Source: Dictyostelium discoideum (Eukaryota). Taken from it: a DNA stretch of 64,000 bases. A program made the translations under genes and the position numbers. Under the pieces are notes generated by a model. The model had not been told where the DNA came from. It saw only the letters and a program-made list of their open reading frames with translations, and searched no databases. Each line of letters starts with the position of its first letter. The first letter of the stretch is position 1. The stretch is from positions 5,056,001 to 5,120,000 of the forward strand of contig CM000151.3 of the NCBI GenBank assembly GCA_000004695.1, written 5' to 3'. Below are positions 8,677 to 64,000 of the stretch, one piece after another.

Positions 8677-9150
8677 TTAATTACAAAATGCAATATCTAT
8701 AGTTGAAGGATTTGTTGCTGTTGTTTCATAATAATCACAATCTATATCATTGGCGAACTCTTGAACTTGATTTTCTTTGACTTTTTTATTTTTTAAATCA
8801 CAATAATAAAAAAATCAATTTTATTACCTACAGTTGATACTACTTGTGTATGTAACTCTTTTATTTCTGAAAATGAATCATTGTTTGTGACATCATAAAC
8901 CAAAATTACACCATCAACTCTTAAATATTGTTTTACAAAATCATTAAAATATCTCTTTTGCCCTGGAGGATCATAAACTTTAACTTTAATATCTTTTCCT
9001 GCTAAATTAATTTCACGTGAAACAAAAGTCGGTACTAATAGTGGATACTGGTTGAGTCATCCCTTCTCCTTTAGTATGACAAGCAAATACTGTACATTCA
9101 CCAACAAAAGTATCTCCTAACAGTAAAAGTTTAATTTCTAGTATATTTCT
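8677..9150 (-). pseudogene. Decayed Rab/Ras-superfamily small GTPase pseudogene
   Basis: The reverse-strand translation gives Rab-like blocks: KLLLLGDTFVGECTVFACH, TDFCF, VKVYDPPGQKRYF, VILVYDVTNNDSFSEIKEL, GNKIDF and YCDLKNKKVKENQVQEFAN...ETTATNPSTIDIAF. The P-loop lysine is lost (GKS -> GEC). DTAGQE has become DPPGQK. At least two frameshifts interrupt it, one in a T7 run. There is no in-frame ATG. Confidence 0.45.
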
Positions 9151-46750: not shown

Positions 46751-46826
46751 ATGTCTCAAAGGGAATGGACAACAGCATCTACAAGCGATTTAATGTCGAA
46801 TTTATTAAACAATCATAATTCAAATA

Positions 46827-46875
<49 letters not shown>

Positions 46876-46886
46876 TAACAATAATG

Positions 46887-46943
<57 letters not shown>

Positions 46944-48003
46944 GCAATAACCAACCATTATTAAGAAATGCAAGTACAAATATCTTTTTTGGTGACGACT
47001 GGACTAAACAGAATACAGTTGGTTTATTATTAGACCCGTTAAATAGAGGTACAAGTTTTTCAAATTTATTAAAATCACCAACAATATTAGGTGATACACA
47101 ACAATCACAACAACCACAATCTCAACACACCATGCAACAATTATTTGCAAATGACCCAACATATCAACAACATCAACAAGAACAAGAACAACAACATCAA
47201 ATGATGGGAAATACAACATCACCAAAATCATTTAACCCATATGTTGGTTTATCACAACCAATGATTGTAACTAATACTGGTAATTTTAATACAACAACAA
47301 CTACTACAACTACATCAAATAATAATAATAATAATAACAATAACAATAACAATAGTAATAATAACAACAATAATAATAGTATGAATATTAATGCAAATAC
47401 ATATGAAGATGGTGAAGATGAACCAAAAACACCACCAACACCATCAAATGAACCAATTAATTGGGATATGCCAAATTATAGACAAAATACAGCATCATTC
47501 CATGCAGATATTAATATTAACAACACTACAAATTCACACCCAACTACATTATCATCGATGATGAAGAATGAAATACCAACATATAGCGGTCAAGTATCAA
47601 ATGAATATGAACAACCAACTAAATTCCAAAGAATTTCAACCTACAACGAAGAATCATTAAATGATAGACTTAGAGGCGATAACACAGGTAGCATTAATTT
47701 CTTACAAGCTGAAACATCTAAACTCAGATCACGTCAATCCTCACAAGATGATCTCGAAAGAAATAGATCATTCCAAATGACTCATTACGACACTGGTTGT
47801 GTACCAATCAGTACAGATTATTATAATAGTCTATTAACACGTTACAATAATAGACCCGAATTCTTTGAGCGTGCAAAAGAAAATCAAATTCAAGTTATCA
47901 ATAATAATAATGTTCAATTAGCTATTGATCTTCAAAATATTTATACTTCAATGAAAAAAGATATTGATGAAGAAAATAATGAATTAAAAAATTTATTAAC
48001 GTA

Positions 48004-48036
<33 letters not shown>

Positions 48037-49276
48037 AAATTAAATATTCAAATATTTATTATTATTATTTTTTATTTTTTTTATTTTTAGAATAAGAATT
48101 TTAGAACCATATGATTTAAGAAAGATTAGAGAATGTTTAGAAGGATTAAAATCACATCTTAGAATTGTTGATGTATTATATAATGAATTAAAATATGTTT
48201 TGAATAGAAAGAAACCAGAATGTTGTGCAGCATTGATTATAACACAACAACCCTATTCTCAAGTTATTTTTAGAGGAGGAAAAGGTATGGGAGAAATATT
48301 TAAGGTTCAAATGATATTTGGTGTACTTCAACCCGACAATATCTCACCAGTTTATGCAACCATAAACAAGAGTGAGAGCAATCCAAATTCAACAACCAAA
48401 AAGGAAAAACCAACTACTACACCAACATTAGAGAATGCAGAGGCAAGTTTAAACACTCAAACTTGGGAAGCCGAATTTAAGAATATCAAAGTGAACGTAT
48501 CAACTCGTATGACACCATCGAGTTTGAAATTTGTTGCAACCTACAAAGAGAAAACATCTGGTAAAACCGTTGAAAAGGATGTCGAAAGTGTGCCAGGTAG
48601 TCCGATCATTGTTATCACCAATGAGTCACAATGGGCAGAAGCAGCAGGTAAACTTTTAATAGCGGATGCATTTGCACATCGTGATGAAATCACATGGGAA
48701 ATGTTTGCAAATGTACTTCATAGTCACATTTTAACAGCAACTCATCAAACTTCAGAGATTAAAAGAAAACTTCATTCTTGGGAATTTGAATATATTCAAA
48801 AGAATTATTTCGATGGTAAGGTTACAGTTAGCAAATCAGAGTGTAAAACATTTTGGGATCGTTTTGGTCCAATCCTTCAAACTATTCATTTCAAAAGACA
48901 TATTGAACCATTATGGTATAGCGGTTTAATCTATGGTTTAATCACAAAGAGCGAATGTAATAGTTATTTAACAACACTCCCCGAGGGTTCTTTCCTCATT
49001 CGTTTTAGTGATAGTGTACCAGGTGCATTTGCTGTTGCTTATGTAACAAACGATGAAAGTGACCGTGTTAAACATTATCTAGTCAAACCTGATGATATTG
49101 GTGCAAATAAAACTTTACCAGACTTTCTTCGTGAACGTCATCAATTTAAAACACTTTATCAAGTTGATCCTTCAAAGAGATCTTTACATCCAAAATCAAA
49201 AGATGCAGAGTTAGAACCTTATTATTCAAAAAGACTTAAACAACAACAAACTAACCCTGGTTATGTTTCTTTATAA
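46751..49276 (+). CDS. STAT-family transcription factor (Dictyostelium dst-type STAT; DNA-binding + SH2 domains); 2 exons approx join(46751..48000,48091..49276), ~811 aa
   Basis: The SH2 domain is clear (WYSGLIYGLITKSECNSYLTTLPEGSFLIRFSDSVPGAFAVAYV...VKHYLV). The STAT DNA-binding and linker region lies upstream (CAALIITQQPYSQVIFRGG..., LLIADAFAHRDEITWEMFANVL). The N-terminal half is poly-N/Q-rich. The intron runs AC|GTATGT to TTTTTAG and gives T-IRILEPYDLRKIRE.... The C-terminus has candidate Tyr sites (EPYYSKR...GYVSL). Confidence 0.8.
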
Positions 49277-49557: not shown

Positions 49558-50884
49558 ATGTCAGAAATAGATACAAATGATATAAAAAAAGAGATGGATA
49601 ATAAAAATTATAGGGATCCTACAGATAATAAGGAATTATTAAAATGGACTAAAAAAAAAAGAAAAAGATCAAATGATTCAATGCATATTAATAATTTTTA
49701 CAGATATAATCCACCAAATTTTAAATTATTAGCAAGTAAATACCCAACCTTTGATAAATAGTATGATAAGTTTTTCAAATAGTCATTTTATAAAACCAAT
49801 TAGATCATCGCTCTTATTGTTAATTCATTTTTAATAATAATAATTATAATACTAATAAAAAAAATAAAAAAAGTATAATAAATAAAACGGAAAAAATTTA
49901 TAATATAGATTGGAAGGATTCAAATGCAACTAAAGAATTAACAAGAGTATTACTTGATCATGATTTTGGTTTAAGAATTGAATTACCTGATAATTATCTT
50001 TGCCCAACTTTAACTTTAAGAATTAATTATTTATATTGGATTTCTGATCAATTAAAAAATTTAAAAATAATATTAAATGATAATGATAATGATAATAAAA
50101 TAATAAAAGGAATTGATATGTATGTATTTAATAAAATAGTAATAACATAACATTTTTATTTTATTTTATTTTATTTTATTTTATTTTATTTTATTTTATT
50201 TTATTTTATTTTAACTAATATAAATAAAAAAGAGGTACTGGTACTTCATGTATATTTCCACTATTAGGTGCAAAGTTATTTAATAATTGGTCATTCATTG
50301 GAATTGATATAGATGATAAAGTATTAGAATATGCTCAAAATAATATTACTATAAATTCTCTAAATTCAAAAATAACATTATTTAAAAATGAAAAGAATAG
50401 TGATATATTATTAAAATTATTAAATTATAAAGAGGGGAGTAATACTTTTAATTCTAGTAATGATGATCATCAAGATAATCATGATGATGATGATGATGAT
50501 GAGGAATACTTTGCAGATTTTTGTTTATGTAATCCACCATTTTTTAAAGATTTAAATGAAAATAATAATAATAAAAATAATAATCCAAAATCAAATTGTA
50601 CAGGATCAGTAAATGAAATGGTTACAGATGGCGGGGAATTTGAATTTGTAAAAAGAATAATTAAAGAATCATTTCAATTGAAATGTAAAATTCGATTTTA
50701 TACAACAATGATTGGTAGAAAAGTTAACCTAAATCCATTAATCAATATATTAATTAAACAATATTATTTACCAAAAAATCAAATACAAACTACTGAATTA
50801 GTTCAAGGTAATACATCAAGATGGGTATTATCTTGGTACTTTTTAAATAAATCTACAAATTTAGAAACTAAAGAAAATAATAAT

Positions 50885-50921
<37 letters not shown>

Positions 50922-51005
50922 TTAATAATAATAATCAATTTTTAACAAGAATGGAGAGAAGAAAATTATATAGAGAGGGGATAACATTGAATTTGGATAG
51001 TGATG

Positions 51006-51092
<87 letters not shown>

Positions 51093-51298
51093 TTGTAGAA
51101 ATTATAAAATTAATATTAGATAATAATGATATAATTTATAAAACAGATGAAAATAATATAAAATATGAATGCAAATATTTATTAAATAATGTTATAGTTG
51201 GTTCATCAATTAAATTGGATAGAGATATTGAATTTTTATTTACAATTTTTATAGATTTAACTACAAGATTGATATTGTTTAAACCAATTGACCCCAAA

Positions 51299-51393
<95 letters not shown>

Positions 51394-51490
51394 TAATAAT
51401 AATAGTTGTGATGGAGAAATTATTAATTCAAATTTATTTTTTATTTTAAAATTTTTGGAAAATATTAAAAATGAAATTAAATTAAAATAA
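49558..51490 (+). CDS. METTL16-like RNA N6-adenosine methyltransferase; 3 exons approx join(49558..49760,49874..50119,50233..51490)
   Basis: Aligns with METTL16: NFKLLASKYPTFDK, then (junction TA|GTATGA...AAAAAAG) YIINKTEKIYNIDWKDSNATKELTRVLLDHDFGLRIELP. Then (AT|GTATGT...AAAAAAG) IGTGTSCIFPLLGA, FCLCNPPFF (the NPPF catalytic motif), MVTDGGEFEFVKRIIKES and RWVLSWYF. There are large poly-N inserts. Confidence 0.8.
50155..50213. repeat. (TTTTA)n pentanucleotide microsatellite in intron 2 of the METTL16-like gene
   Basis: About 11 tandem TTTTA units. Confidence 0.8.
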
Positions 51491-51774: not shown

Positions 51775-52935
51775 ATGGATAGACGTGATTATAGTAAGGA
51801 AAAATACAAATATGGAGATAATGATAAAGATAGGCGTTTTTCAAATGATAAAATAAGACATAATTTCGACGAATTTACGATGCCCTCGAATGATCGTAGA
51901 GATAGAGATAAAGACATAGATAGGTACAGAGATCGATATAGAGATAGAGATAGATATAGAGATAGAGATAGAGATAGAGATAGAGATAGAGATAGAGAAA
52001 GAGAAAGAGAAAGAGAAAGAGAAAGAGAAAGATCACGGTCACCAAATAGGAATTATAGTAGAAATAACAATAGTAGTAGTTATAATAGTAATAATAGTAG
52101 CAGTAGCTTTGATGACGGGTATAAATATAGAGATATGGATAGGGAAAGAGATAAATACAGAGAAAATAAAAGATTTGATAGTTCAAGAAATAATGAAGAT
52201 CATAGGTCATCGATTAGGCCGCTATCTTATGATGGATATGATGATGATGATTATGGACGTTCAAAGAGGAATAAAACTGAACAATATTTAAAAGAAATGG
52301 TAGCTTCAAATGGTAATCAAAAGAGAGAAAGATTAGAGGATAGTATACCTGATTTACCAGAGAATAGAGAGGCAAGAGAATTCTTAAGAAATGCTCCAAC
52401 TAAAGGTTTACATCAACCATTAGGAAAAGAAGTTAAAGTTATGCAATGTTGGAAATGTAAATTCTATGGTCATAGAGCAATAGAATGTACTCAAACTAAT
52501 CCAATTGCTGAATATGAAAAATTAAAAAGAGAAGATCCAATGATTCAATATAATGATCATGATGATTTTGGTTTTAATAATAATAAAAACAATAATATAA
52601 ATAATAATAATAATAATAATAATAATAATTTTATTCATAAAGATAGAATTAATAAAATAAATAATACTAATGATGAGAATAATGATAATAATAATAAAAT
52701 GAATAAAAGACAAAAAAAATTAAAACAGCTTCAAGAATTATTAGCAAGAGCAGAGGAAAATGAGAGAAAAAGGAAAGAGAAGAAAAGAAAAAGAAAAGAA
52801 AAGAAAAAAATCAAAGCCAGTAAAAAATCTCATCATCGTCATAGTAGCGATAGTGATAGTAGTGGTGGTGGTAGTAGTGATAGTGATAGTGATCTCAGCA
52901 AAGACGAGAGTTATTCAAGTAATGAAAGTGAATAA
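51775..52935 (+). CDS. RD/RE/RS-dipeptide-repeat protein with CCHC zinc knuckle (putative RNA-binding, SREK1IP1/ZCCHC10-like)
   Basis: Contains the repeats (RD)n(RE)n RSRSP, then a CCHC knuckle (CWKCKFYGHRAIEC), a basic K/R/E-rich coiled region and an SDSDSS tail. Single exon. Confidence 0.65.
   Translation: MDRRDYSKEKYKYGDNDKDRRFSNDKIRHNFDEFTMPSNDRRDRDKDIDRYRDRYRDRDRYRDRDRDRDRDRDRERERERERERERSRSPNRNYSRNNNSSSYNSNNSSSSFDDGYKYRDMDRERDKYRENKRFDSSRNNEDHRSSIRPLSYDGYDDDDYGRSKRNKTEQYLKEMVASNGNQKRERLEDSIPDLPENREAREFLRNAPTKGLHQPLGKEVKVMQCWKCKFYGHRAIECTQTNPIAEYEKLKREDPMIQYNDHDDFGFNNNKNNNINNNNNNNNNNFIHKDRINKINNTNDENNDNNNKMNKRQKKLKQLQELLARAEENERKRKEKKRKRKEKKKIKASKKSHHRHSSDSDSSGGGSSDSDSDLSKDESYSSNESE
51941..52032 (+). 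repeat. Coding (GATAGA/GAGAGA/GAAAGA)n hexanucleotide repeat encoding RDRDRD...RERERE
   Basis: Purine-strand tandem repeat inside CDS 51775..52935. Confidence 0.8.
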
Positions 52936-54510: not shown

Positions 54511-54912
54511 ATGACATTTAATAATATTAAAGACGAAAATAACGATGATATTGCCATCATTGGTATGGGTTTCCGTTTTCCAGGTGGTGGTAATAATCCA
54601 GATCAATTTTGGAATCAATTATCAAATAAAATGGATGGTATTTCAAAGATTTCTCAAGAAAAATGGTCAAGATCTTTTTATGAACAAAAATATATAAATA
54701 ACGAATATGGTGGTGTCTTAAAAGATGAAGAATGGAAAAATTTTGATCCATTATTTTTTGGTATTTCACCAAAAGAAGCACCAACCATTGATCCACAACA
54801 ACGTCTTTTAATGACAACACTTTGGGAAGGTAAATAATAATAATAATTATAATTATAATAATAGTAGTATTTTTTTTTGTTAAAATTAAAAAGTTATTAA
54901 TATATATACATA

Positions 54913-54970
<58 letters not shown>

Positions 54971-57900
54971 AGCATTTGAAGATGCAAATATTAAACCATC
55001 AACATTACGTGGATCAGATACAGCAGTATTTATTGGTATGATGAATCTTGATTATCAAAGATGTCAATTCAGAGATATATCATATATTAATCCGTATACA
55101 GTTACTGGTAGTGCAGGATCATTTGTATCAAATCGTTTAAGTTTTAGTTTTGATTTACGTGGTCCATCAATGACACTTGATACAGCATGTTCATCATCAT
55201 TGAATGCAGTTTATCTTGGTTGTCAAGCTATTGCAACTGGTGATAGTAAGATGGCAATTGTTGGTGGTGTCAATGGTATTTTCGATCCAAGTATTTCAAT
55301 GACATTCTCTGGATTAAATATGTTGGGACACAAAGGTCAATGTAGATCATTCGATGCTGGTGCTGATGGTTACATCCGTAGTGAAGGTGGTGGTGTTTGT
55401 ATCCTAAAGAAATATTCAGATGCAATTAAAGATGGTGACCGTATTTATTGTGTTATCAAAGGTGGTAGTTCAAATGTTGATGGATACAATGCAAAGACCA
55501 ATATCACTCAACCATCAATGAAGGCTCAAGGTGAAAACATTGAAATTGCTTTAAAGAAATCTGGTGTAAATCCATCAGATATCTATTATATAGAAGCTCA
55601 TGGTACTGGTACACCAGTTGGTGATCCGATTGAAATTGAAGCAATATCAAGAATATTCAAAGATAATCATACACCCGATGCTCCATTGTACATTGGTTCA
55701 GTTAAAAGCAACATTGGTCATCTTGAAAGTGCTGCCGGTATTGCATCATTAATCAAAGTTGCACTCTCTTTAAAAAATCGTTCATTGGTTCCAAATATTC
55801 ATTTTGAAAAACCAAATCCATTAATCAAATTCGAAGATTGGAATATTCGTGTAGTCACTGATGAAATCCAGTTCCCAACCAATAAATTAATTAATATGGG
55901 TATTAATTGTTTTGGTCTATCTGGTTCAAATTGTCATATGATTCTAAGTGAAGCACCAATTAATTATGATGAATTATTGAAAACAACAAATAATAACTCT
56001 ACATCCTCTTCTTCAAATGATGATAAAAAAGAATATTTAATACCATTTTCAGCAAACTGTAATATTTCATTAGATAAATATATAGAGAAATTAATTTCAA
56101 ACCAATCTATTTATAAAGATACAATATTATTTAAAGATTTTGTAAAACATCAAACAATTTCAAAATCAAATTTAATAAAGAGAAAAGTTATAACCGCTTC
56201 CGATTGGGATGACTTTTTAAATAAAAGAAATGAAACTACATCAACTTCATCATTGACTTCAACAATTTCAGCACCAGCTTCATCAACTCCAGTCATTTAT
56301 GTTTTCACCGGTCAAGGCCCACAATGGAGAGATATGGGTAAAGCATTATATGAAACTGAATCAGTATTTAAAGATGCCATTGATCATTGTGATAAATTAC
56401 TTGCTAATTATTTTGGATATTCAATACTCCAAAAGTTACGTTCATTAGAAAGTGATGATTCACCAGAAATTCATCATCCAATTTTAGCACAACCAAGTAT
56501 TTTCTTAATTCAAGTTGGTTTAGTCGCACTTTATAAATCATTTGGTATTTCACCATCAATTGTAGTTGGTCATAGTTTTGGTGAAGTTTCATCCGCTTTA
56601 TTCTCTGGTGTCATCAGTTTAGAAACTGCTGTTAAAATCGTTTACTATAGAGGCTTAGCTCAAAATTTAACAATGGGAACTGGTAGATTATTATCAATTG
56701 GTATCGGTGCTGATGCTTATCTTGAAAAATGTGCTTTATTATATCCAGAAATTGAAATAGCTTGTTATAATGATCCAAATTCAATTGTTATTACTGGTTC
56801 TGAACAAGATTTGTTAGGTGCTAAATCAACACTATCAGCTGAAGGTGTTTTTTGTGCTTTCTTAGGTACACCATGTTCTTTCCACTCATCAAAACAAGAA
56901 ATGATTAAAGAAAAGATATTCAAAGATTTATCAGATTTACCAGAATCAAATGTACCATGTGTACCATTCTTTTCAACAATTACTGGTTCACAATTATCTC
57001 ATAAAGGTTTCTACAATGTTCAATACATTTATGATAATTTACGTATGCCTGTTGAATTCACCAAAGCCATTTCAAACATTTTCAATTTCATTGAAGAAAA
57101 TGAATCATACAAGAATGCAATCTTTTTAGAGATTGGTCCTCATCCAACTTTAGGTTTTTATATTCCAAAATGTAAACCATCAAATTCAACAATAACTTCA
57201 AAACCAATTATAGTATCACCATTACATAAAAAGAAAGAAGAATTAACACAATTTAAATTAGCAATTTCAACTCTATATTGTAATGGTGTTGAAATTGATT
57301 TTGCAAGTGGTCAACAATTATTACCAACTTCTTCTTCATCCGGAGGTGGCGATATATCATCATTTAAAGAGTCGACAAATAAATTACCAAGATACCAATG
57401 GGATTTTGAAGAATATTGGGATGAACCAAACCAAAGTAAAATGGTAAAACGTGGTCCATCAAATAATTTATTAGGTCATGATCAATTTGCAGGTAATACT
57501 TTAATGGAATTATTTATTGATATTAATAAATCTGCTCATCAATATCTAAAAGGTCATAAAATTAAAGGTAAATATCTTTTCCCAGGTTCTGGTTATATTG
57601 ATAATATTCTTCGTCAATTCAATGGTCAAGATATTACCATTTTCAATTTAGAATTTTCAAATCCATTCTTTTTGAAAGATGGTGTTCAACATCATTTACA
57701 AACTTCAATTACACCAACTACCAAGGGTGAATTTAAAGTTGAATTCTTTATAAAGGATAATAGAAACTCAACTAAATGGACTAAAACTTCAAATGGTCGT
57801 ATTGGATTATTCAAACATAATCCAAAGAATAATAAATTGGATATTGAAAAACTTAAAAGTCAATGTTCATTTACCACCCTTACAAAGTCTGAAGTTTACA

Positions 57901-60900
57901 ATAAGCTATTGTTATTAAGTTTACCATATGGTCCAACTTTCCAAAGAGTTGAATCATGTTCAATTGGTGATGGATGTTCATTCTTTAAACTTTCAATGTC
58001 ACCTTGTTCAGAGTTTGACAAAGATTTCTTAAATCCTTCAATTATTGATTGTGCATTCCATGGTTTATTAGTACTCAGTGAAGGTCCACAAGAGATTGTT
58101 TTCGATCGTTTACAAGATATGAAATTCTATTCTTCAAATGTACCTTCAACAAGACCTCAATTCATTTATGCCTTTGCTAAATTCGATAAAATTGTAGGAA
58201 ATTCAACTCATGGTTCTCTAGATATCATGTTAGAAGATGGTACATTATTAATTTCAATTAAAAATGTTAAATGTACATCATTAATACGTTTAAAGAAACA
58301 ATCAATTAAATATCCTTCACAAAATGTTTATTCACACCATTGGCAATCAAAAGATTCACCATTAACTTTAATTGAAAATCAATTAATTGAAGAGAAATCA
58401 TCAGAATCTAAAATTAATTTTGAAAAATTATTAAATGATAAATTATTTAATGATTATTTAATTAGATTATTAAACCAATCAATTAAATCTGAATTTATAG
58501 AATTCGATTATAAAACTTCAACAGTAGATACTTTAGAAATTGATTCAAATAATACAAAACTATTAGAAAAGATTCAATCAATTTTAAAAACAATTGATTC
58601 ATTAGATCAATCAATTGATTTAGCTAGTTTAAAACAAGTAATTATTGAAAAATCATCATCATTTAAAAAAGAAATTAATTTAATTGAAAAATCAATCAAA
58701 CGTATTGTTTCATTATTAAAAGGTGGTGAAAGTGAACATTTTTCACCAAGTAATCCAAGTTCACCAAATGACACACCAAGATATAATTCAAACAATTGTT
58801 CTTCAAAGAGTAATAATACCTCTAGTGGTGCTGATGATGATACTAACAATGAAGAAACAATTAATCAATTAAATAATGAACCATTTAATTTCTCAAATTC
58901 TCAATTCATTTCAAATCAAAATCAATTAATTTCAAAAACAATTGTAAATTCATTTGATAGATTAATTAATTCGATTGAAATTGGCGAAAAGAAATTAATT
59001 AAAATAATTGATTTATCAAGTATCTATCAAAATAATCAACTTTCAAAATTATTATTATTACAATTAAATCAATTACTAATTAATTTATCAAATAATAATA
59101 ATATTGAAATTGAATATACAATTCCATCAAATACCAAAAATATTGATTCAATTAAAGAAGAAACTAAATCGATTTCAAATTTATTAAATATTAAATATCG
59201 TAGTTTTGATTTACAAGATGATTTAGAAAGTAATGGTTATTTAAATTCAAATTATGATTTAATTATAACTTCTTTATTATTAGTTTCAACAAACTCAATT
59301 GATTCAAATGAAGTTTTATCAAAACTTTATAAATTATTATTACCAAAAGGTCAATTAATTTTAATGGAACCACCAAAGGATGTATTATCATTCAATCTTT
59401 TATTTGCAAATGATTTCAAACAATCATTAGAAATTAAAAGTGAACAAGAAATTAAATCATTAATTAGATATTGTGGTTTCACTAAAATTGAAACAAATAA
59501 TATTACCCAAGATGATGAAGAAGAACAACAACAACCACCATCAATTTTAATAGTTCAAACTGAAAAGAGAGATATTGAATCAATGTCATTGACTTTCTCA
59601 TCAGATCCAGAATCATTAAATTCTTCATATAGTAATTGTATATTCATAGTTTCAAAAGAACAAAAAGAAAATCCAACTTCATATATTCAAGAATATTTTG
59701 ATATTACTGAAGTATTCTGTGATAACACTACAATTATTGAAGCTGGTGATAGTGAATTATTAACAAAGACAATTGAATCAGGTATTGGTAAAAATGATAT
59801 TATTTTCTTTTTAGTTTCACTTGAAGAATTAACAATTGAAAATTATAAACAAGTTACAATGCAATATACATTAGTTAATCAAATACTTTTAAGAAATAAT
59901 CTTTCAACTAGATTTGCTTTATTAACTTACGATTCTCAAAATGGTGGTAAAAATTATTTAGGATCATCATTAATTGGTACTTTTAGATACTTTTTAGAAT
60001 TTCCATCATTGAATACCTTTTCAATTGATGTCGATAAAGATTCAATTGATAATCTTACATTATTCTTACGTTTAGTTGATCTATCTACAATTGGTGATAG
60101 AGAAACTATTGTTAGAAATAATAAAATTTTTGTTCAAAAGATTTTCAAAGAGCCAAAATTGTTATCACCATCAAATAATTACGAAAAGGATACAAATAAT
60201 TTATATTTGAATACAAATAGTAATTTAGATTTTTCATTCCAATGCAAAGAGAAATTACCACATGGTTCCGTCGAAATTAAAGTTATGTCAACTGGTATCA
60301 ACTATAAAGATAATCTTTTCTATAGAGGTTTATTACCACAAGAAATCTTTACAAAAGGTGATATTTATTCTCCACCATTCGGTTTAGAATGTGCTGGTTA
60401 TATTACACGTGTTGCACCAAGTGGCGTTACTCGTTTCAAAGTTGGTGATCAAGTTGTTGGTTTTGCAAGCCATTCTTTAAGTTCACTAGCTATTACTCAT
60501 CAAGATAAAATTGTATTAAAACCTGAAAATATTTCATTCAATGAAGCTGCTGCCGTTTGTGTAGTTTATGCAACAAGTTATTATTCAATTTTCCATATTG
60601 GTGCATTTATGGCCGATAAAGAATCAATCCTAGTTCATTCTGCAACTGGTGGTGTTGGTTTAGCAACTTTAAATCTTTTAAAATGGAAGAGAAATCAATT
60701 GAAAAAACATGGCAACTCTGAAATTAGTAATGATGCTTCAATTTATGCTACAGTGGGTTCTAAAGAAAAAGTCGATTATTTACAAGAGAAATATGGTGAT
60801 TTAATAACTGCAATTTACAATAGTAGAGATACTGAATATTGCGATGAAATTAAACAACAATCAGCACAAGGAGGTGTAGATTTAATTTTAAATACACTCT

Positions 60901-62465
60901 CTGGTGATTATTTATCTGCAAATTTCCGTTCACTTTCCCAAGTTGGTAGAATTATGGATTTATCAGTCACTCAATTGGTTGAAAATGATTCATTAGATTT
61001 TTCAAACTTTAAGTATCATGTTACTTACAGTACAATCGATTTAGAAAGAGCTACAACATATAATTCAAAAATCGTTAGAGATATCCTCACAGAAGTATTT
61101 GATGCAATTTCTGATGGTAGTCTTGAAAATATTCCAGTTAAAGTTTTCCCAGCAACTCAAGTTAAAACTGCGATTGAATATATTAATGAACGTGTTCATA
61201 TTGGTAAAATTGTAGTTGATTTTGAAAACTTTGAACAAGATATTCTTAAACCAGCTTTACAAGAGAAAGAAAATCCAATTCAATTGAATAAAGTTAAAAA
61301 ATTGGAACATACTTGTGATACTTTAAATAATACAATTTTAATCACTGGTCAAACTGGTATTGCTGTTCATATTTTAAAATGGATTATTTCTGGTTCTGTT
61401 TTAAATTCAAATAAATCACAACAACAAGTAACAGATTTCATAATTTTATCAAGATCATCATTAAAATGGGAACTTGAAAATTTAATTAATCAAACTAAAC
61501 ATAAATATGGTGATAGATTTAGATTCCATTATAAATCTGTAAATATTGCAGATTTAAATTCAACTCGTACTGCAATTGATCAAGTTTATTCAAGTTGTAA
61601 AAATGTTTCACCAATTAAATCAGTATTACATTTTGCAACAGTTTATGAATACATTTTACCAGAAGATATCACTCAAACCGTAATTGATAATACTCATAAT
61701 CCAAAAGCAGTCGGTGCAATTAATTTACATAATCTTTCAATTGAAAAAGATTGGAAATTAGAAAACTTTATTCTCTTTTCATCAATTGGTGCTATCATTG
61801 GTGGTTCAAAACAATGTGCATATAGTAGTGCTAATTTAGTATTGGATTCATTATCAAACTATAGAAAGAGTATTGGTCTTGCTTCAACTTCAATTAATTG
61901 GGGTGGTTTGGATGCTGGTGGTGTTGCCGCCACTGATAAATCAGTCGCAAGTTTCTTAGAGGGTCAAGGTATTTTATTGGTTTCTTTATCAAAGATTTTA
62001 GGTTGTCTTGATTCAGTTTTCCAACCATCTAATTCCCATTTATCAAACTTTATGCTTTCAAGTTTCAATATTGATAATCTTTTATCTTCTGCACCTCAAA
62101 TGAAGAGAAAAATGGGTCACCACCTAACAAATTATAAAACTTCATCTGCTAGCTCTGATGATTCATTGGGTGATTCTAGTTCTACTCAAGCAAAAGTCAT
62201 TTCTACAATCTCTGAATTATTATCAATTCATCCATCAAAATTAAATTTAGATACAAGATTAAAAGACTATGGTATTGATTCTTTATTAACAGTACAATTA
62301 AAGAATTGGATAGATAAAGAATTTACAAAGAATTTATTCACTCATTTACAATTATCATCAAGTAGTATTAATAGTATCATTCAGAGAATTAGTTCAAAAT
62401 CAACTTCAACATCTACTCCCAATCCAACTAACACCACAAAACAAACCGCAACAACAAAAACATAA
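54511..62465 (+). CDS. Type I iterative polyketide synthase (KS-AT-DH-[degenerate C-MT]-ER-KR-ACP); 2 exons approx join(54511..54829,54973..62465), ~2600 aa
   Basis: KS: [14 protein letters not shown], intron G|GTAAAT...[48 protein letters not shown]: GHSFGE. DH: HxxxGxxxxP-type region ([20 protein letters not shown]). A methyltransferase-like remnant reads [14 protein letters not shown]: [14 protein letters not shown]: [15 protein letters not shown]: [12 protein letters not shown]. The gene ends after the ACP. Confidence 0.9.
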
Positions 62466-62779
62466 GTAGTTCAAACAACTCCAACTACATTTGACACTTC
62501 TATGTTTATTCCATATTTAAAAAATTAAAAAAAAAAAATTAATAAAAAAAATTAAAAATATCTTTTAATATTAATACTTAAAAATTCTTGAACTATATTT
62601 ATTAAAAAAAAAAATTACCTTTAACCAATTTAAAAAAAAAACAAAAAAATAATAATAGTGTACAAATAAAAGAAATAATTAAAAAAAAAACAAAAAAAAT
62701 AATATTAATATTAAAGAAATGGAAAAAAAAAAAAAAAAGTGTTTAGCAAAGTTTTTTTTTTTTTTTTTTATTTGGCAAT

Positions 62780-63400
62780 GATTTTACCGAATAACGATAC
62801 GATGTTGAGTGGTAACATTATTACCAAGTTTTTCGAGATAGGTTTGGTTGTTTTTCTAAAATTTATTTAACATCTGATGTAAAACCTGCTTGTTTTTCAA
62901 CTGCTGCTTTAACAATTGCTGATACCTCTTTATCTTTGTTTTAATACTAATAAATATTCCTCTTTTTTTTTTATTGTTTAAAATAATGGTTAGTTTTTAT
63001 TAAAAAAAATTTAAAAATTTAAAACTTACTTTGATGTGTTTTAACTTGGCATGCTAATGAATAAATTTCAATACCATTGGTATTTTTCAAGAGATTATCT
63101 ATTATGATTTGAGCCAATCCATAGAATTAACTTGTTTAACCAAGAATTTTTTACCATTCTGGTACTTTTTTCAATGGTGCCATAACTTCTGGTTTATTTT
63201 GATGAACAAGGTATGCATTAACATGTGCTATTCAAGTGGCAATGTATGGTTTATTTTGATAAACTTGATCTTCCTTCTTAAAAATTTAATATTGTTAATT
63301 CTTATTAATATCATTGTGGAAATCCATTTGATCTTCAAGATATTTACTATGTTGACTAGAGATGGATTTTGAGAAAGATCACGGTCACCAAATAGGAATT
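62780..63400. other. Degenerate, non-coding mosaic region with internal short direct repeats and a 30-nt exact copy of coding sequence from 52025..52054
   Basis: There is no long ORF with a recognisable fold. Minus-strand fragments (...GIEIYSLACQVKTHQ|GTAAGT; KEVSAIVKAAVEKQAGFTSDVK*) lack a start codon. The motif ggtttattttgat(g/a)aac is repeated. The 3' end (63371..63400) is identical to part of the RD-repeat gene. Confidence 0.3.
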
Positions 63401-63567
63401 AAAATTTTAATTTTCTGGTCGTTTGTTGTGTTTTTAATTTGTTTTTGATTTTTTTTTTTTTTTAATTTTTTTTTTTTTTTTTTTTTTTTTTTGACACTTT
63501 GGTGTTTTTGATTTTTTTTTGATTTTTTTTTTTATATTTTATTTAATTTTAAATTTTTTGAAACACA

Positions 63568-64000
63568 ATGAACAAATTTTGGGAAACTGGTAGAAAGATT
63601 GTTGCAGTAGGAAGAAATTATGCACAACATGCTAAAGAATTAGGAAATGAAATTCCATCAGAACCATTCTTTTTTTTAAAACCAACTTCAAGTTATTTAC
63701 TTCAAGGAACTGGTCCAATTGAAATCCCATTAGAATCATCAGATATTCACCATGAAGTTGAATTAGGTATTGTCATTGGTAAAAAAGGTAGAGATATTGA
63801 TTTAAAATCTGCAATGGATTATGTTAGTGGTTATACATTAGCTTTAGATATGACTTCAAGAGATCAACAATCAATTGCCAAAGCTAAAGTAAGTTTTTTT
63901 TTTTTTTTTTTTTTCAAATAAAAAAAAAACTTAAAATTATCTATACTAATTTTCATTATTATTATTATTATTATTATTGACTAATAATAATAAAGTCATT
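63568..64000 (+). CDS. Fumarylacetoacetate hydrolase (FAH) domain protein, FAHD1/FAHD2-like (acylpyruvase/oxaloacetate decarboxylase family); first exon 63568..63888, continues past window end
   Basis: The sequence MNKFWETGRKIVAVGRNYAQHAKELGNEIPSEPFFFLKPTSS...HHEVELGIVIGKKGRDI matches the FAHD1 N-terminal region. The exon ends AAA|GTAAGT. Confidence 0.7.

What the first reader, a model, noticed from the sequence alone, without database searches (positions are those of the whole stretch)
54511..64000. Type I PKS immediately followed by a FAH-family (beta-diketone C-C hydrolase) gene with a junk/mosaic region between them
A roughly 2600-aa iterative PKS (KS-AT-DH-remnant MT-ER-KR-ACP, with no TE or type-III domain) lies about 1.1 kb upstream of a FAHD1-like gene on the same strand. 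FAH enzymes cleave 1,3-dicarbonyl/acylpyruvate substrates, which is exactly the chemistry of polyketide intermediates. The pairing could be a minimal two-gene biosynthetic unit (product release or trimming), or it could be coincidence. The methyltransferase-like segment ([12 protein letters not shown]) appears to lack a canonical SAM motif, suggesting an inactive C-MT.
Basis: inference. Interest (0 to 1): 0.5.

Follow-up and report, generated by a model that had tools for sequence, protein, structure and literature searches.

The report
Fatty-acid synthase gene beside unrelated FAHD1
The two genes are the already known Dictyostelium fatty-acid synthase Pks16 and the housekeeping enzyme FAHD1, and they are neighbours only because a roughly 24-kb piece of chromosome is flipped in this laboratory-type strain, so they are not a biosynthetic pair.

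Summary
A 2603-aa type I PKS (two exons, 54511-54829 and 54973-62465, +) ends 1102 bp upstream of a FAH-family gene (ATG at 63568, +, cut by the window end).

Both genes are known. The PKS matches D. discoideum AX4 Pks16 (DDB_G0275069) exactly. Pks16 is the presumed primary, essential, vegetative fatty-acid synthase, and its cryo-EM structure is PDB 9NJU. The second gene is the single-copy FAHD1 orthologue: 51% identical to human FAHD1, with all 10 catalytic-centre residues conserved.

The pairing is an accident of a rearrangement. In two other D. discoideum assemblies and in D. cf. discoideum, the two FAS-type PKS copies lie in tandem. In the two D. discoideum assemblies FAHD1 is about 14 kb from the nearest copy, on the opposite strand, next to a ~900-aa gene. 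D. citrinum, D. dimigraforme, D. purpureum, P. violaceum, T. lacteum and H. album also have no PKS upstream of FAHD1.

The AX4-type arrangement is a clean reciprocal inversion of about 24 kb. One junction lies at window 63405-63411.

The "junk" region is a scar of three parts:
- the pks16 3' flank;
- a decayed minus-strand copy of the last two exons of the NatA auxiliary-subunit gene, duplicated along with the PKS;
- a 31-nt fragment of the upstream gene.

The inactive-MT inference is correct and already published as MT0. Low interest.

The parts
54511..54829 (+). pks16 exon 1 (N-terminal part of the KS domain)
   Evidence: ATG at 54511 and GT donor at 54830. The spliced product matches Pks16/DDB_G0275069 exactly.
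54830..54972 (+). pks16 intron (GT..AG, with a long poly-T tract)
   Evidence: Removing it restores the KS reading frame and gives the exact database protein.
54973..62465 (+). pks16 exon 2: rest of KS, then AT, DH, inactive MT (psiMT), ER, KR and ACP; the stop codon ends at 62465
   Evidence: Pfam domains. Motifs DTACSS 176, GHSFG 639, HxxxGxxxxP 968 and GIDSL 2540. Identical to the PDB 9NJU chain.
58413..59603 (+). Methyltransferase-like, inactive segment of Pks16 (about residues 1254-1650)
   Evidence: No Methyltransf_* Pfam hit, only Anamorsin_N. No GxGxG motif. Partial alignment to the CurJ C-MT, with Val at the position of the His of CurJ 'NVLHAT' (that this His is the catalytic one is from my memory of the CurJ literature). 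MT0 is among the domain labels of the Pks16 comparison figure in PMC12828403.
62466..62770 (+). pks16 3' flank, paralogous to the pks17 3' flank. A deletion here removed the last ~65 codons of the co-duplicated NatA copy.
   Evidence: Alignment A1. L001 vs L005 is 95.5% identical through about 220 bp past the stop codon.
62771..63345 (-). Pseudogene relic: a decayed copy of the last two exons and the intron of the NatA auxiliary-subunit gene
   Evidence: 79-93% identical to L005 18434-19224, the 3' end of the NatA_aux_su gene next to pks17. It has in-frame stops, frameshifts and deletions of about 80 and 89 nt. It is also present between the tandem PKS copies of the other D. discoideum assemblies.
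63371..63401 (+). 31-nt exact copy of window 52025-52055, which lies inside the 386-aa ORF upstream of pks16. Probably the left edge of the old tandem duplication unit.
63405..63411 (.). Inversion junction J1. Sequence from the PKSa-PKSb spacer is on the left and the native FAHD1 5' flank is on the right.
   Evidence: Homology to the tandem-arrangement PKSa-PKSb spacer ends at 63411. Homology to the FAHD1 upstream region of those assemblies starts at 63405.
63412..63567 (+). Native FAHD1 5' flank. Only about 160 bp of the original upstream region remains attached to the gene.
63568..63888 (+). fahd1 (DDB_G0275071) exon 1, residues 1-107
   Evidence: PF01557, E = 2e-26. The full 218-aa protein was rebuilt from L001 and is an exact match to EAL69816.1/XP_643785.1.
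63889..63990 (+). fahd1 intron (GTAAGT...AG). Exon 2 begins at about 63991 and is cut by the window end.

Best explanation
These are two unrelated, already characterised genes placed side by side by a recent chromosomal inversion.

[quoted passage not shown] The expected cycle is standard FAS chemistry and is inferred, not shown here. AT loads malonyl units onto ACP, KS condenses, and KR, DH and ER fully reduce each beta-keto group. The methyltransferase-like domain is a structural remnant. There is no built-in release domain, so off-loading must happen in trans or through AT, and the route is unknown.

(2) fahd1 encodes the conserved Mg-dependent FAHD1 enzyme, an oxaloacetate decarboxylase and acylpyruvase. 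It is mitochondrial in animals and is presumed to do the same job here.

(3) History, shown by comparison. An ancestral FAS-type PKS was tandemly duplicated together with about 1.3 kb or more of its 5' flank and the 3' end of the convergent NatA-auxiliary gene. That left a NatA pseudogene relic between the two copies. In the AX4-type genome, the ~24-kb segment from PKS copy B through NatA, WD40, KAS and a large gene to FAHD1 then inverted. Copy B became pks17, now in inverted orientation, and FAHD1 came to lie 1.1 kb downstream of pks16 on the same strand.

The 'junk' spacer is the sum of those two scars.
For: Identity:
- The protein matches Pks16/Q869W9 exactly and matches PDB 9NJU.
- The literature describes Pks16 as the presumed primary FAS. 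It is expressed in vegetative cells, it is reported as essential and CRISPR attempts gave no knock-out, and its structure is solved (PMC12828403; PMC12625978).
- All catalytic motifs for a full reduction cycle are present, and there is no TE.

FAHD1:
- Exact match to XP_643785.1, which UniRef names 'Oxaloacetate decarboxylase, mitochondrial'.
- About 60% identical to plant, fungal and animal FAHD1.
- E = 1e-71 against human FAHD1 structure 6FOG.
- All ten residues of the human catalytic centre listed in PMC7056447 are conserved.

Rearrangement:
- AX4-type order: pks16(+) FAHD1(+) 1271aa(-) KAS(+) WD40(+) NatA(+) pks17(-) 921aa(-).
- Tandem order PKSa(+) PKSb(+) NatA(-) WD40(-) KAS(-) 1255aa(+) in GCA_054859355.1, with PKSa(+) PKSb(+) NatA(-) also in GCA_054859385.1 and in D. 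cf. discoideum. FAHD1 lies next to the ~900-aa gene in both of those D. discoideum assemblies.
- The ~900-aa gene is also the upstream neighbour of FAHD1 in D. citrinum and D. dimigraforme.
- There is no PKS within 10 kb upstream of FAHD1 in D. purpureum, P. violaceum (5.4 kb available), T. lacteum or H. album.
- The two junctions J1 and J2 are reciprocal, as a simple inversion requires.
- The relic is homologous to the 3' exons of NatA.
Against: - I could not retrieve any expression or localisation data for D. discoideum fahd1. Searches found no paper, and no supplementary tables were held. Lack of co-regulation is therefore argued from synteny and chemistry, not measured.
- The comparison assemblies labelled D. 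discoideum are only about 91-96% identical to AX4 in this region. I cannot say whether the inversion arose in the laboratory lineage or is common among close relatives of NC4.
- The enzyme that releases the Pks16 product is still unknown, so a trans-acting partner does exist somewhere.
Confidence: 0.9

Rival explanations
1. Minimal two-gene biosynthetic unit. FAHD1 would cleave or trim a 1,3-dicarbonyl polyketide intermediate, or release the product of the TE-less Pks16.
For: The genes are on the same strand with a 1.1-kb spacing. Pks16 has no release domain. FAH-family enzymes include beta-diketone hydrolases (abstract of PMC4534308).
Against: The adjacency is absent from nine other dictyostelid assemblies and was created by an inversion. 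In the tandem-arrangement D. discoideum assemblies the genes are about 14 kb apart on opposite strands. FAHD1 is a single-copy pan-eukaryotic orthologue, not a lineage-specific tailoring paralogue. Pks16 has intact KR, DH and ER domains and is regarded as a FAS, so it should produce saturated chains with no diketone. From general knowledge of the family, FAHD1 substrates are free 2,4-diketo acids and oxaloacetate chelated to Mg through the carboxylate, not ACP thioesters.
Confidence: 0.03
2. The new neighbourhood has a strain-specific regulatory side effect. Read-through or chromatin spill-over from the very highly expressed pks16 would alter fahd1 expression in AX4-type strains, which keep only about 160 bp of the native fahd1 upstream sequence.
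For: Junction J1 lies about 160 bp upstream of the ATG. pks16 is reported to have the highest transcriptional activity of the pks genes, in vegetative cells (PMC12625978), and Pks16 was the most abundant protein in a cytosolic fraction (PMC12828403).
Against: No expression data are available here. Dictyostelium promoters are often short. The intergenic region in D. citrinum is only about 445 bp. The FAHD1 coding sequence is unchanged.
Confidence: 0.1
3. The inverted arrangement, and therefore the adjacency, is an assembly artefact caused by the two 96%-identical PKS copies.
For: Repeats of 8.5 kb are a classic source of misassembly. The AX4 reference is a Sanger-era assembly.
Against: The same arrangement and the same junction sequence occur in a second assembly, on a 4.9-Mb contig (GCA_054883475.1). 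The breakpoints lie in unique sequence outside the region shared by the two PKS copies, and they are reciprocal. In the other strains the repeats are direct, so collapsing or swapping them could not produce an inversion.
Confidence: 0.03

Closest known systems
D. discoideum Pks16 (DDB_G0275069, UniProt Q869W9, PDB 9NJU), the presumed primary fatty-acid synthase
   Same: 100% identical over 2603 aa. Same domain order and same inactive MT.
   Different: Nothing; it is this gene.
Animal-type FAS (pig FAS, PDB 2VZ9) and fungal highly reducing PKSs (LovB)
   Same: KS-AT-DH-(psi)MT-ER-KR-ACP order, homodimeric iterative architecture, and an MT-like fold inserted in the KR structural subdomain (PMC12828403).
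   Different: There is no C-terminal thioesterase as in animal FAS, and no condensation domain as in LovB. The off-loading route is unknown. KS-AT is rigidly connected to DH, as in LovB and unlike pig FAS.
Human and mouse FAHD1 (PDB 6FOG, 6SBI), an oxaloacetate decarboxylase and acylpyruvase
   Same: 51% identity end to end, E = 1e-71. All ten catalytic-centre residues are conserved: G24, R25, H30, E33, K47, E71, E73, D102, Q109 and K123 in human numbering.
   Different: The N-terminus is 9 residues shorter. Localisation and activity have not been tested in Dictyostelium.
Pks17 (DDB_G0275077), the inverted paralogue about 24 kb away
   Same: 95.5% identical DNA from about 380 bp upstream of the ATG to about 220 bp past the stop codon. 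It shares the 3' flank that contains the NatA sequence.
   Different: Pks17 is followed by the intact NatA-auxiliary gene, whereas pks16 is followed by the decayed relic. Pks17 is reported to operate only at late culmination (PMC12828403).

Membership tests
Type I iterative FAS-like PKS (Pks16) | KS with an active-site Cys, and the KS N- and C-terminal domains | tested here: met
   PF00109 E = 1.7e-76 and PF02801 E = 1.1e-38. DTACSS at residue 176.
Type I iterative FAS-like PKS (Pks16) | AT (GHSxG), DH (HxxxGxxxxP), ER, KR and ACP (DSL) all present on one polypeptide | tested here: met
   Pfam hits. GHSFG at 639, [10 protein letters not shown] at 968 and GIDSL at 2540.
Type I iterative FAS-like PKS (Pks16) | Sequence identity with the named protein | tested here: met
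   Exact match to Q869W9/XP_643784.1 and to PDB 9NJU.
Type I iterative FAS-like PKS (Pks16) | The product is a saturated fatty acid | not testable with these tools
   [quoted passage not shown] I found no in-vitro product analysis.
Active PKS C-methyltransferase | SAM-binding motif I (E/D-x-G-x-G-x-G) | tested here: not met
   No GxGxG or GxGxxG motif anywhere in the protein. The motif position reads [13 protein letters not shown]. No Methyltransf_* Pfam hit.
Active PKS C-methyltransferase | Catalytic His of the His-Glu dyad (the His of CurJ 'NVLHAT') | tested here: not met
   The alignment to CurJ structure 5THY puts Val ('SLLLVST') at the His position; the Glu of 'LME' is kept. The assignment of the dyad residues is from my memory of the CurJ literature.
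FAHD1 (oxaloacetate decarboxylase and acylpyruvase) | FAA_hydrolase fold in a single-domain protein of about 220 aa | tested here: met
   PF01557. 218 aa.
FAHD1 (oxaloacetate decarboxylase and acylpyruvase) | Catalytic centre G24, R25, H30, E33, K47, E71, E73, D102, Q109 and K123 (human numbering) | tested here: met
   10 of 10 conserved. The residue list is from PMC7056447.
FAHD1 (oxaloacetate decarboxylase and acylpyruvase) | Mitochondrial localisation | tested here: inconclusive
   Only 9 residues precede the conserved core. The aligned orthologues have 0-9 residues before the core, so the length of the N-terminus does not discriminate. No Dictyostelium localisation data were retrievable.
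Biosynthetic gene cluster (PKS plus tailoring or release enzyme) | Co-localisation conserved across related genomes | tested here: not met
   Adjacent only in the AX4-type assembly. Absent from two other D. discoideum assemblies, D. cf. discoideum, D. citrinum, D. dimigraforme, D. purpureum, P. violaceum, T. lacteum and H. album.
Biosynthetic gene cluster (PKS plus tailoring or release enzyme) | Co-expression of the member genes | not testable with these tools
   pks16 is reported as vegetative-specific and highly expressed. No fahd1 expression data were found.
Biosynthetic gene cluster (PKS plus tailoring or release enzyme) | The partner enzyme is a lineage-specific paralogue recruited to the pathway | tested here: not met
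   The gene is the orthologue of FAHD1 in plants, fungi, animals and other Amoebozoa, at about 60% identity.

The most novel reading that the evidence does not exclude
The roughly 24-kb inversion is a previously unremarked structural difference between the AX4-type laboratory genome and the other sequenced D. discoideum-complex strains. It turned the two FAS genes from a tandem pair into an inverted pair. It also re-housed fahd1 behind the most active pks gene with only about 160 bp of its own upstream DNA. This could change fahd1 and/or pks17 regulation in the strain that almost all Dictyostelium laboratories use.
Probability: 0.12. Interest if true: 0.25.

Novelty: already known. Interest (0 to 1): 0.1.

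Why it matters
It matters little for biosynthesis, because the PKS-FAH pairing should not be treated as a candidate gene cluster. Three minor points are useful.

- It is a clean example of gene adjacency in a reference genome being an accident of one strain's rearrangement history.
- pks16 and pks17 form an inverted pair in AX4 but a tandem pair in other strains. This is relevant to anyone designing knock-outs or interpreting recombination at this essential locus.
- The real open question stays open and is not answered by fahd1: how does the TE-less Pks16 release its fatty acid?

Tried and rejected
I worked around this with ids from the listing of cluster members.
- The first homology search, with only FAHD1 exon 1, returned short fragments and no dictyostelid. 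It was repeated with the full protein.
- An unfiltered blastn of the AT-rich spacer was swamped by low-complexity hits. It was repeated with dust filtering on the non-repetitive core.
- My first guess, from reading the minus-strand translation, was that the relic was an aldo-keto reductase or CfaA_B_C pseudogene. Homology to the NatA-auxiliary gene ruled that out.
- Literature searches for FAHD1 in Dictyostelium, DDB_G0275071 and DDB_G0275069 found nothing.
- No supplementary tables were held for the RNA-seq paper, the mitochondrial compendium or the spatial-proteomics paper. Expression and localisation could therefore not be checked.
- Length of the N-terminus was rejected as a test of mitochondrial targeting, because the whole family has short N-termini.
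- No tRNA or Rfam family lies in the spacer.
Full report
**What is there.** The window has about 22% G+C, typical of Dictyostelium. A two-exon gene on the + strand occupies 54511-54829 and 54973-62465, with a GT..AG intron carrying a long T-run. It encodes a 2603-aa protein.

Pfam gives these domains:

| Domain | Residues |
|---|---|
| KS | 12-385 |
| KS-extension | 387-500 |
| AT | 548-879 |
| DH | 957-1215 |
| MT-like (hits only Anamorsin_N) | 1517-1627 |
| ER | 1871-2188 |
| KR | 2227-2418 |
| ACP | 2508-2587 |

Only 16 residues follow the ACP, so there is no thioesterase, reductase or type III domain. The catalytic motifs are intact: DTACSS 176, GHSFG 639, HxxxGxxxxP 968 and GIDSL 2540.

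The stop codon ends at 62465. A FAA_hydrolase gene starts at 63568 on the same strand, 1102 bp downstream. Its exon 1 runs to 63888 and its second exon is cut by the window end.

**Identity of the PKS.** The spliced protein matches D. discoideum AX4 DDB_G0275069, 'Probable polyketide synthase 16' (Q869W9), exactly. Pks17 falls in the same 90%-identity cluster. The PDB holds this very sequence as 9NJU.

Two 2025 papers describe Pks16 (PMC12828403; PMC12625978):
- it has the highest transcriptional activity of the pks genes and is expressed exclusively in vegetative cells;
- it is reported as essential, and CRISPR attempts gave no knock-out;
- it has been solved by cryo-EM at 3.9 Å.

Pks17 is 96% identical and is said to operate only at late culmination.

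**The methyltransferase remnant.** The protein contains no GxGxG or GxGxxG motif anywhere. Where SAM motif I should be, the sequence reads [13 protein letters not shown]. No Methyltransf_* family is hit.

Against solved structures, only the C-terminal half of the segment aligns to an active C-MT (CurJ, 5THY, E = 0.002). There CurJ 'NVLHAT' corresponds to 'SLLLVST'. That is Val at what I recall, from the CurJ literature, to be the catalytic His.

The legend of the figure comparing Pks16 with other synthases lists MT0, inactive MT, among its domain labels.

**Identity of the FAH gene.** I recovered the whole gene from a second assembly of the same genotype (locus L001). It encodes 218 aa.
- It matches XP_643785.1/EAL69816.1 exactly; UniRef names it 'Oxaloacetate decarboxylase, mitochondrial'.
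- It is about 60% identical to FAHD1 of plants, fungi and animals, and 63-97% identical to single orthologues in other dictyostelids.
- It aligns end to end with human FAHD1 (6FOG) at E = 1e-71 and 51% identity.
- All ten residues that PMC7056447 lists as the human catalytic centre are conserved.

It is therefore the ordinary FAHD1 orthologue, not a recruited paralogue.

Aligned orthologues from amoebae, a plant and an animal have only 0-9 residues before the conserved core, and the abstracts listed describe human FAHD1 as mitochondrial.

**Is the pairing conserved?** It is not. I looked at the neighbourhood of FAHD1 or of the PKS in ten assemblies.

| Assembly | Arrangement |
|---|---|
| AX4-type (window and GCA_054883475.1) | 386aa(+) pks16(+) FAHD1(+) 1271aa(-) KAS-541(+) WD40(+) NatA-aux(+) pks17(-) 921aa(-) HSP20(-) |
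| D. discoideum GCA_054859385.1 and GCA_054859355.1 | PKSa(+) PKSb(+) in tandem, followed by NatA(-); the second continues WD40(-) KAS(-) 1255aa(+). FAHD1 lies directly behind a 898-941-aa gene |
| D. cf. discoideum | Same PKS tandem followed by NatA(-) |
| D. citrinum, D. dimigraforme | The ~920-aa gene lies directly upstream of FAHD1; the downstream block is the same |
| D. purpureum | TIG-domain gene upstream of FAHD1; no PKS within 10 kb |
| P. violaceum | COMM-domain gene upstream; no PKS in the 5.4 kb available |
| T. lacteum | CfaA_B_C gene upstream; no PKS within 10 kb |
| H. album | Peptidase_M50 gene upstream; no PKS within 10 kb |

In GCA_054859385.1, the record coordinates place FAHD1 about 14 kb from the nearest PKS, on the opposite strand.

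**The rearrangement.** The AX4-type order equals the tandem order with the segment [PKSb ... FAHD1] inverted. The junctions show this directly.
- The spacer between PKSa and PKSb in the tandem assemblies is homologous to the window up to 63411. It then continues into the pks17 5' flank.
- The spacer between the ~900-aa gene and FAHD1 in those assemblies matches the flank of the AX4 921-aa gene up to L005 8702. From about 175 bp before the FAHD1 ATG it matches window 63405 onward.
- Written out, the two AX4 junctions are reciprocal, as a simple inversion requires:
  - J1 is ...GGAATTAAAATTTTAA|TTTTCTGGTCG...
  - J2 is ...AAAACTGTTTTT|ATAATAATA...
- The breaks lie in T/A runs.
- From the record coordinates of L001 and L005, the inverted segment is about 24 kb.

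Misassembly is unlikely. The breakpoints lie in unique sequence outside the region shared by the two PKS copies. The same junction is present in a second assembly on a 4.9-Mb contig.

The tandem state is ancestral, for two reasons. The tandem PKS order is shared by the other D. discoideum-complex assemblies. The adjacency of the ~900-aa gene and FAHD1 is also found in D. citrinum and D. dimigraforme.

**The 'junk/mosaic' spacer.** Its parts, in window coordinates, are:

| Window coordinates | Content |
|---|---|
| 62466-62770 | pks16 3' flank, paralogous to the pks17 3' flank |
| 62771-63345, minus strand | 79-93% identical copy of the last two exons and intron of the NatA auxiliary-subunit gene, whose intact copy sits convergently behind pks17 |
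| 63371-63401 | Exact 31-nt copy of window 52025-52055, inside the 386-aa ORF upstream of pks16; probably the left edge of the original duplication unit |
| 63405-63411 | Inversion junction J1 |
| 63412-63567 | Remaining native fahd1 upstream sequence |

The NatA copy has in-frame stops, frameshifts, deletions of about 80 and 89 nt, and has lost its last ~65 codons. The same relic lies between the tandem PKS copies of the other assemblies. It was therefore made when the PKS was tandemly duplicated together with its flanks. The spacer contains no tRNA and no Rfam family.

**How it most likely works.** Pks16 works as a homodimeric iterative fatty-acid synthase. Its KR, DH and ER domains fully reduce each beta-keto group, and the MT-like domain is only structural. 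The architecture is shown; the product is inferred from the literature. Release of the product needs an unidentified factor.

FAHD1 presumably does its conserved job on oxaloacetate or acylpyruvates. This is inferred from orthology and from the intact active site.

A functional link is unlikely for four reasons:
- the adjacency is new and specific to this genome type;
- the ancestral arrangement places the genes apart and on opposite strands;
- a fully reducing synthase should leave no 1,3-dicarbonyl to cleave;
- FAH-fold enzymes act on free diketo-acids bound through a carboxylate to Mg, not on thioesters (general knowledge of the family).

**Limits.**
- I found no expression or localisation data for fahd1.
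- The comparison assemblies labelled D. discoideum are only 91-96% identical to AX4 here, so the age of the inversion is open. It could have arisen in the laboratory lineage or be a natural polymorphism.

**Verdict.** The inactive-MT inference is right but already known. The two-gene-unit idea is not supported. Both genes are already known, and the only new detail is the inversion and the duplication scar. Interest is low.

Noticed in passing
window 63405-63411 (J1); L005 ~8702-8733 (J2): An inversion of about 24 kb distinguishes the AX4-type genome from two other D. discoideum assemblies and from D. cf. discoideum. It converts the pks16/pks17 pair from tandem to inverted. The junctions are clean, reciprocal and lie in T/A runs.
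   Followed up: yes
window 63371-63401 and 52025-52055: An exact 31-nt repeat. A fragment of the 386-aa ORF (RD/RE-rich, with a CCHC zinc knuckle) sits at the end of the NatA relic. It probably marks the left edge of the old tandem duplication unit.
   Followed up: partly
L001 19042-27944; L008; L006; L003; L002: The gene block FAHD1 / large minus-strand gene / stand-alone ketosynthase / WD40 / NatA-aux is conserved across the D. discoideum complex and P. violaceum, and partly in D. purpureum. The ketosynthase is 541 aa with an N-terminal extension of about 85 aa, and is possibly the mitochondrial type II KAS.
   Followed up: partly
L004 10001-12497 (Tieghemostelium lacteum): FAHD1 is convergent with a citrate synthase gene that ends 129 bp downstream, and a glyoxalase-family gene follows. 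This is curious because both FAHD1 and citrate synthase use oxaloacetate, but it is seen in one species only.
   Followed up: no
window 46751-49276 and 50618-51490: Upstream neighbours of pks16: a STAT-type gene (STATa_Ig, EF-hand_12 and SH2 domains) and the C-terminal exon of a Methyltransf_10 (RNA methyltransferase) gene.
   Followed up: no
L010-L013 versus L001/L005: The assemblies GCA_054859385.1 and GCA_054859355.1, both labelled D. discoideum, are only about 91-96% identical to AX4 across this region. That is divergent for members of one species. One D. cf. discoideum strain has a FAHD1 protein identical to that of AX4.
   Followed up: no
window 54511-62465 (Pks16 C-terminus, residues 2588-2603): Pks16 has no off-loading domain. 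Neither this locus nor the structure paper says how the fatty acid is released, so this remains a genuine open question.
   Followed up: no
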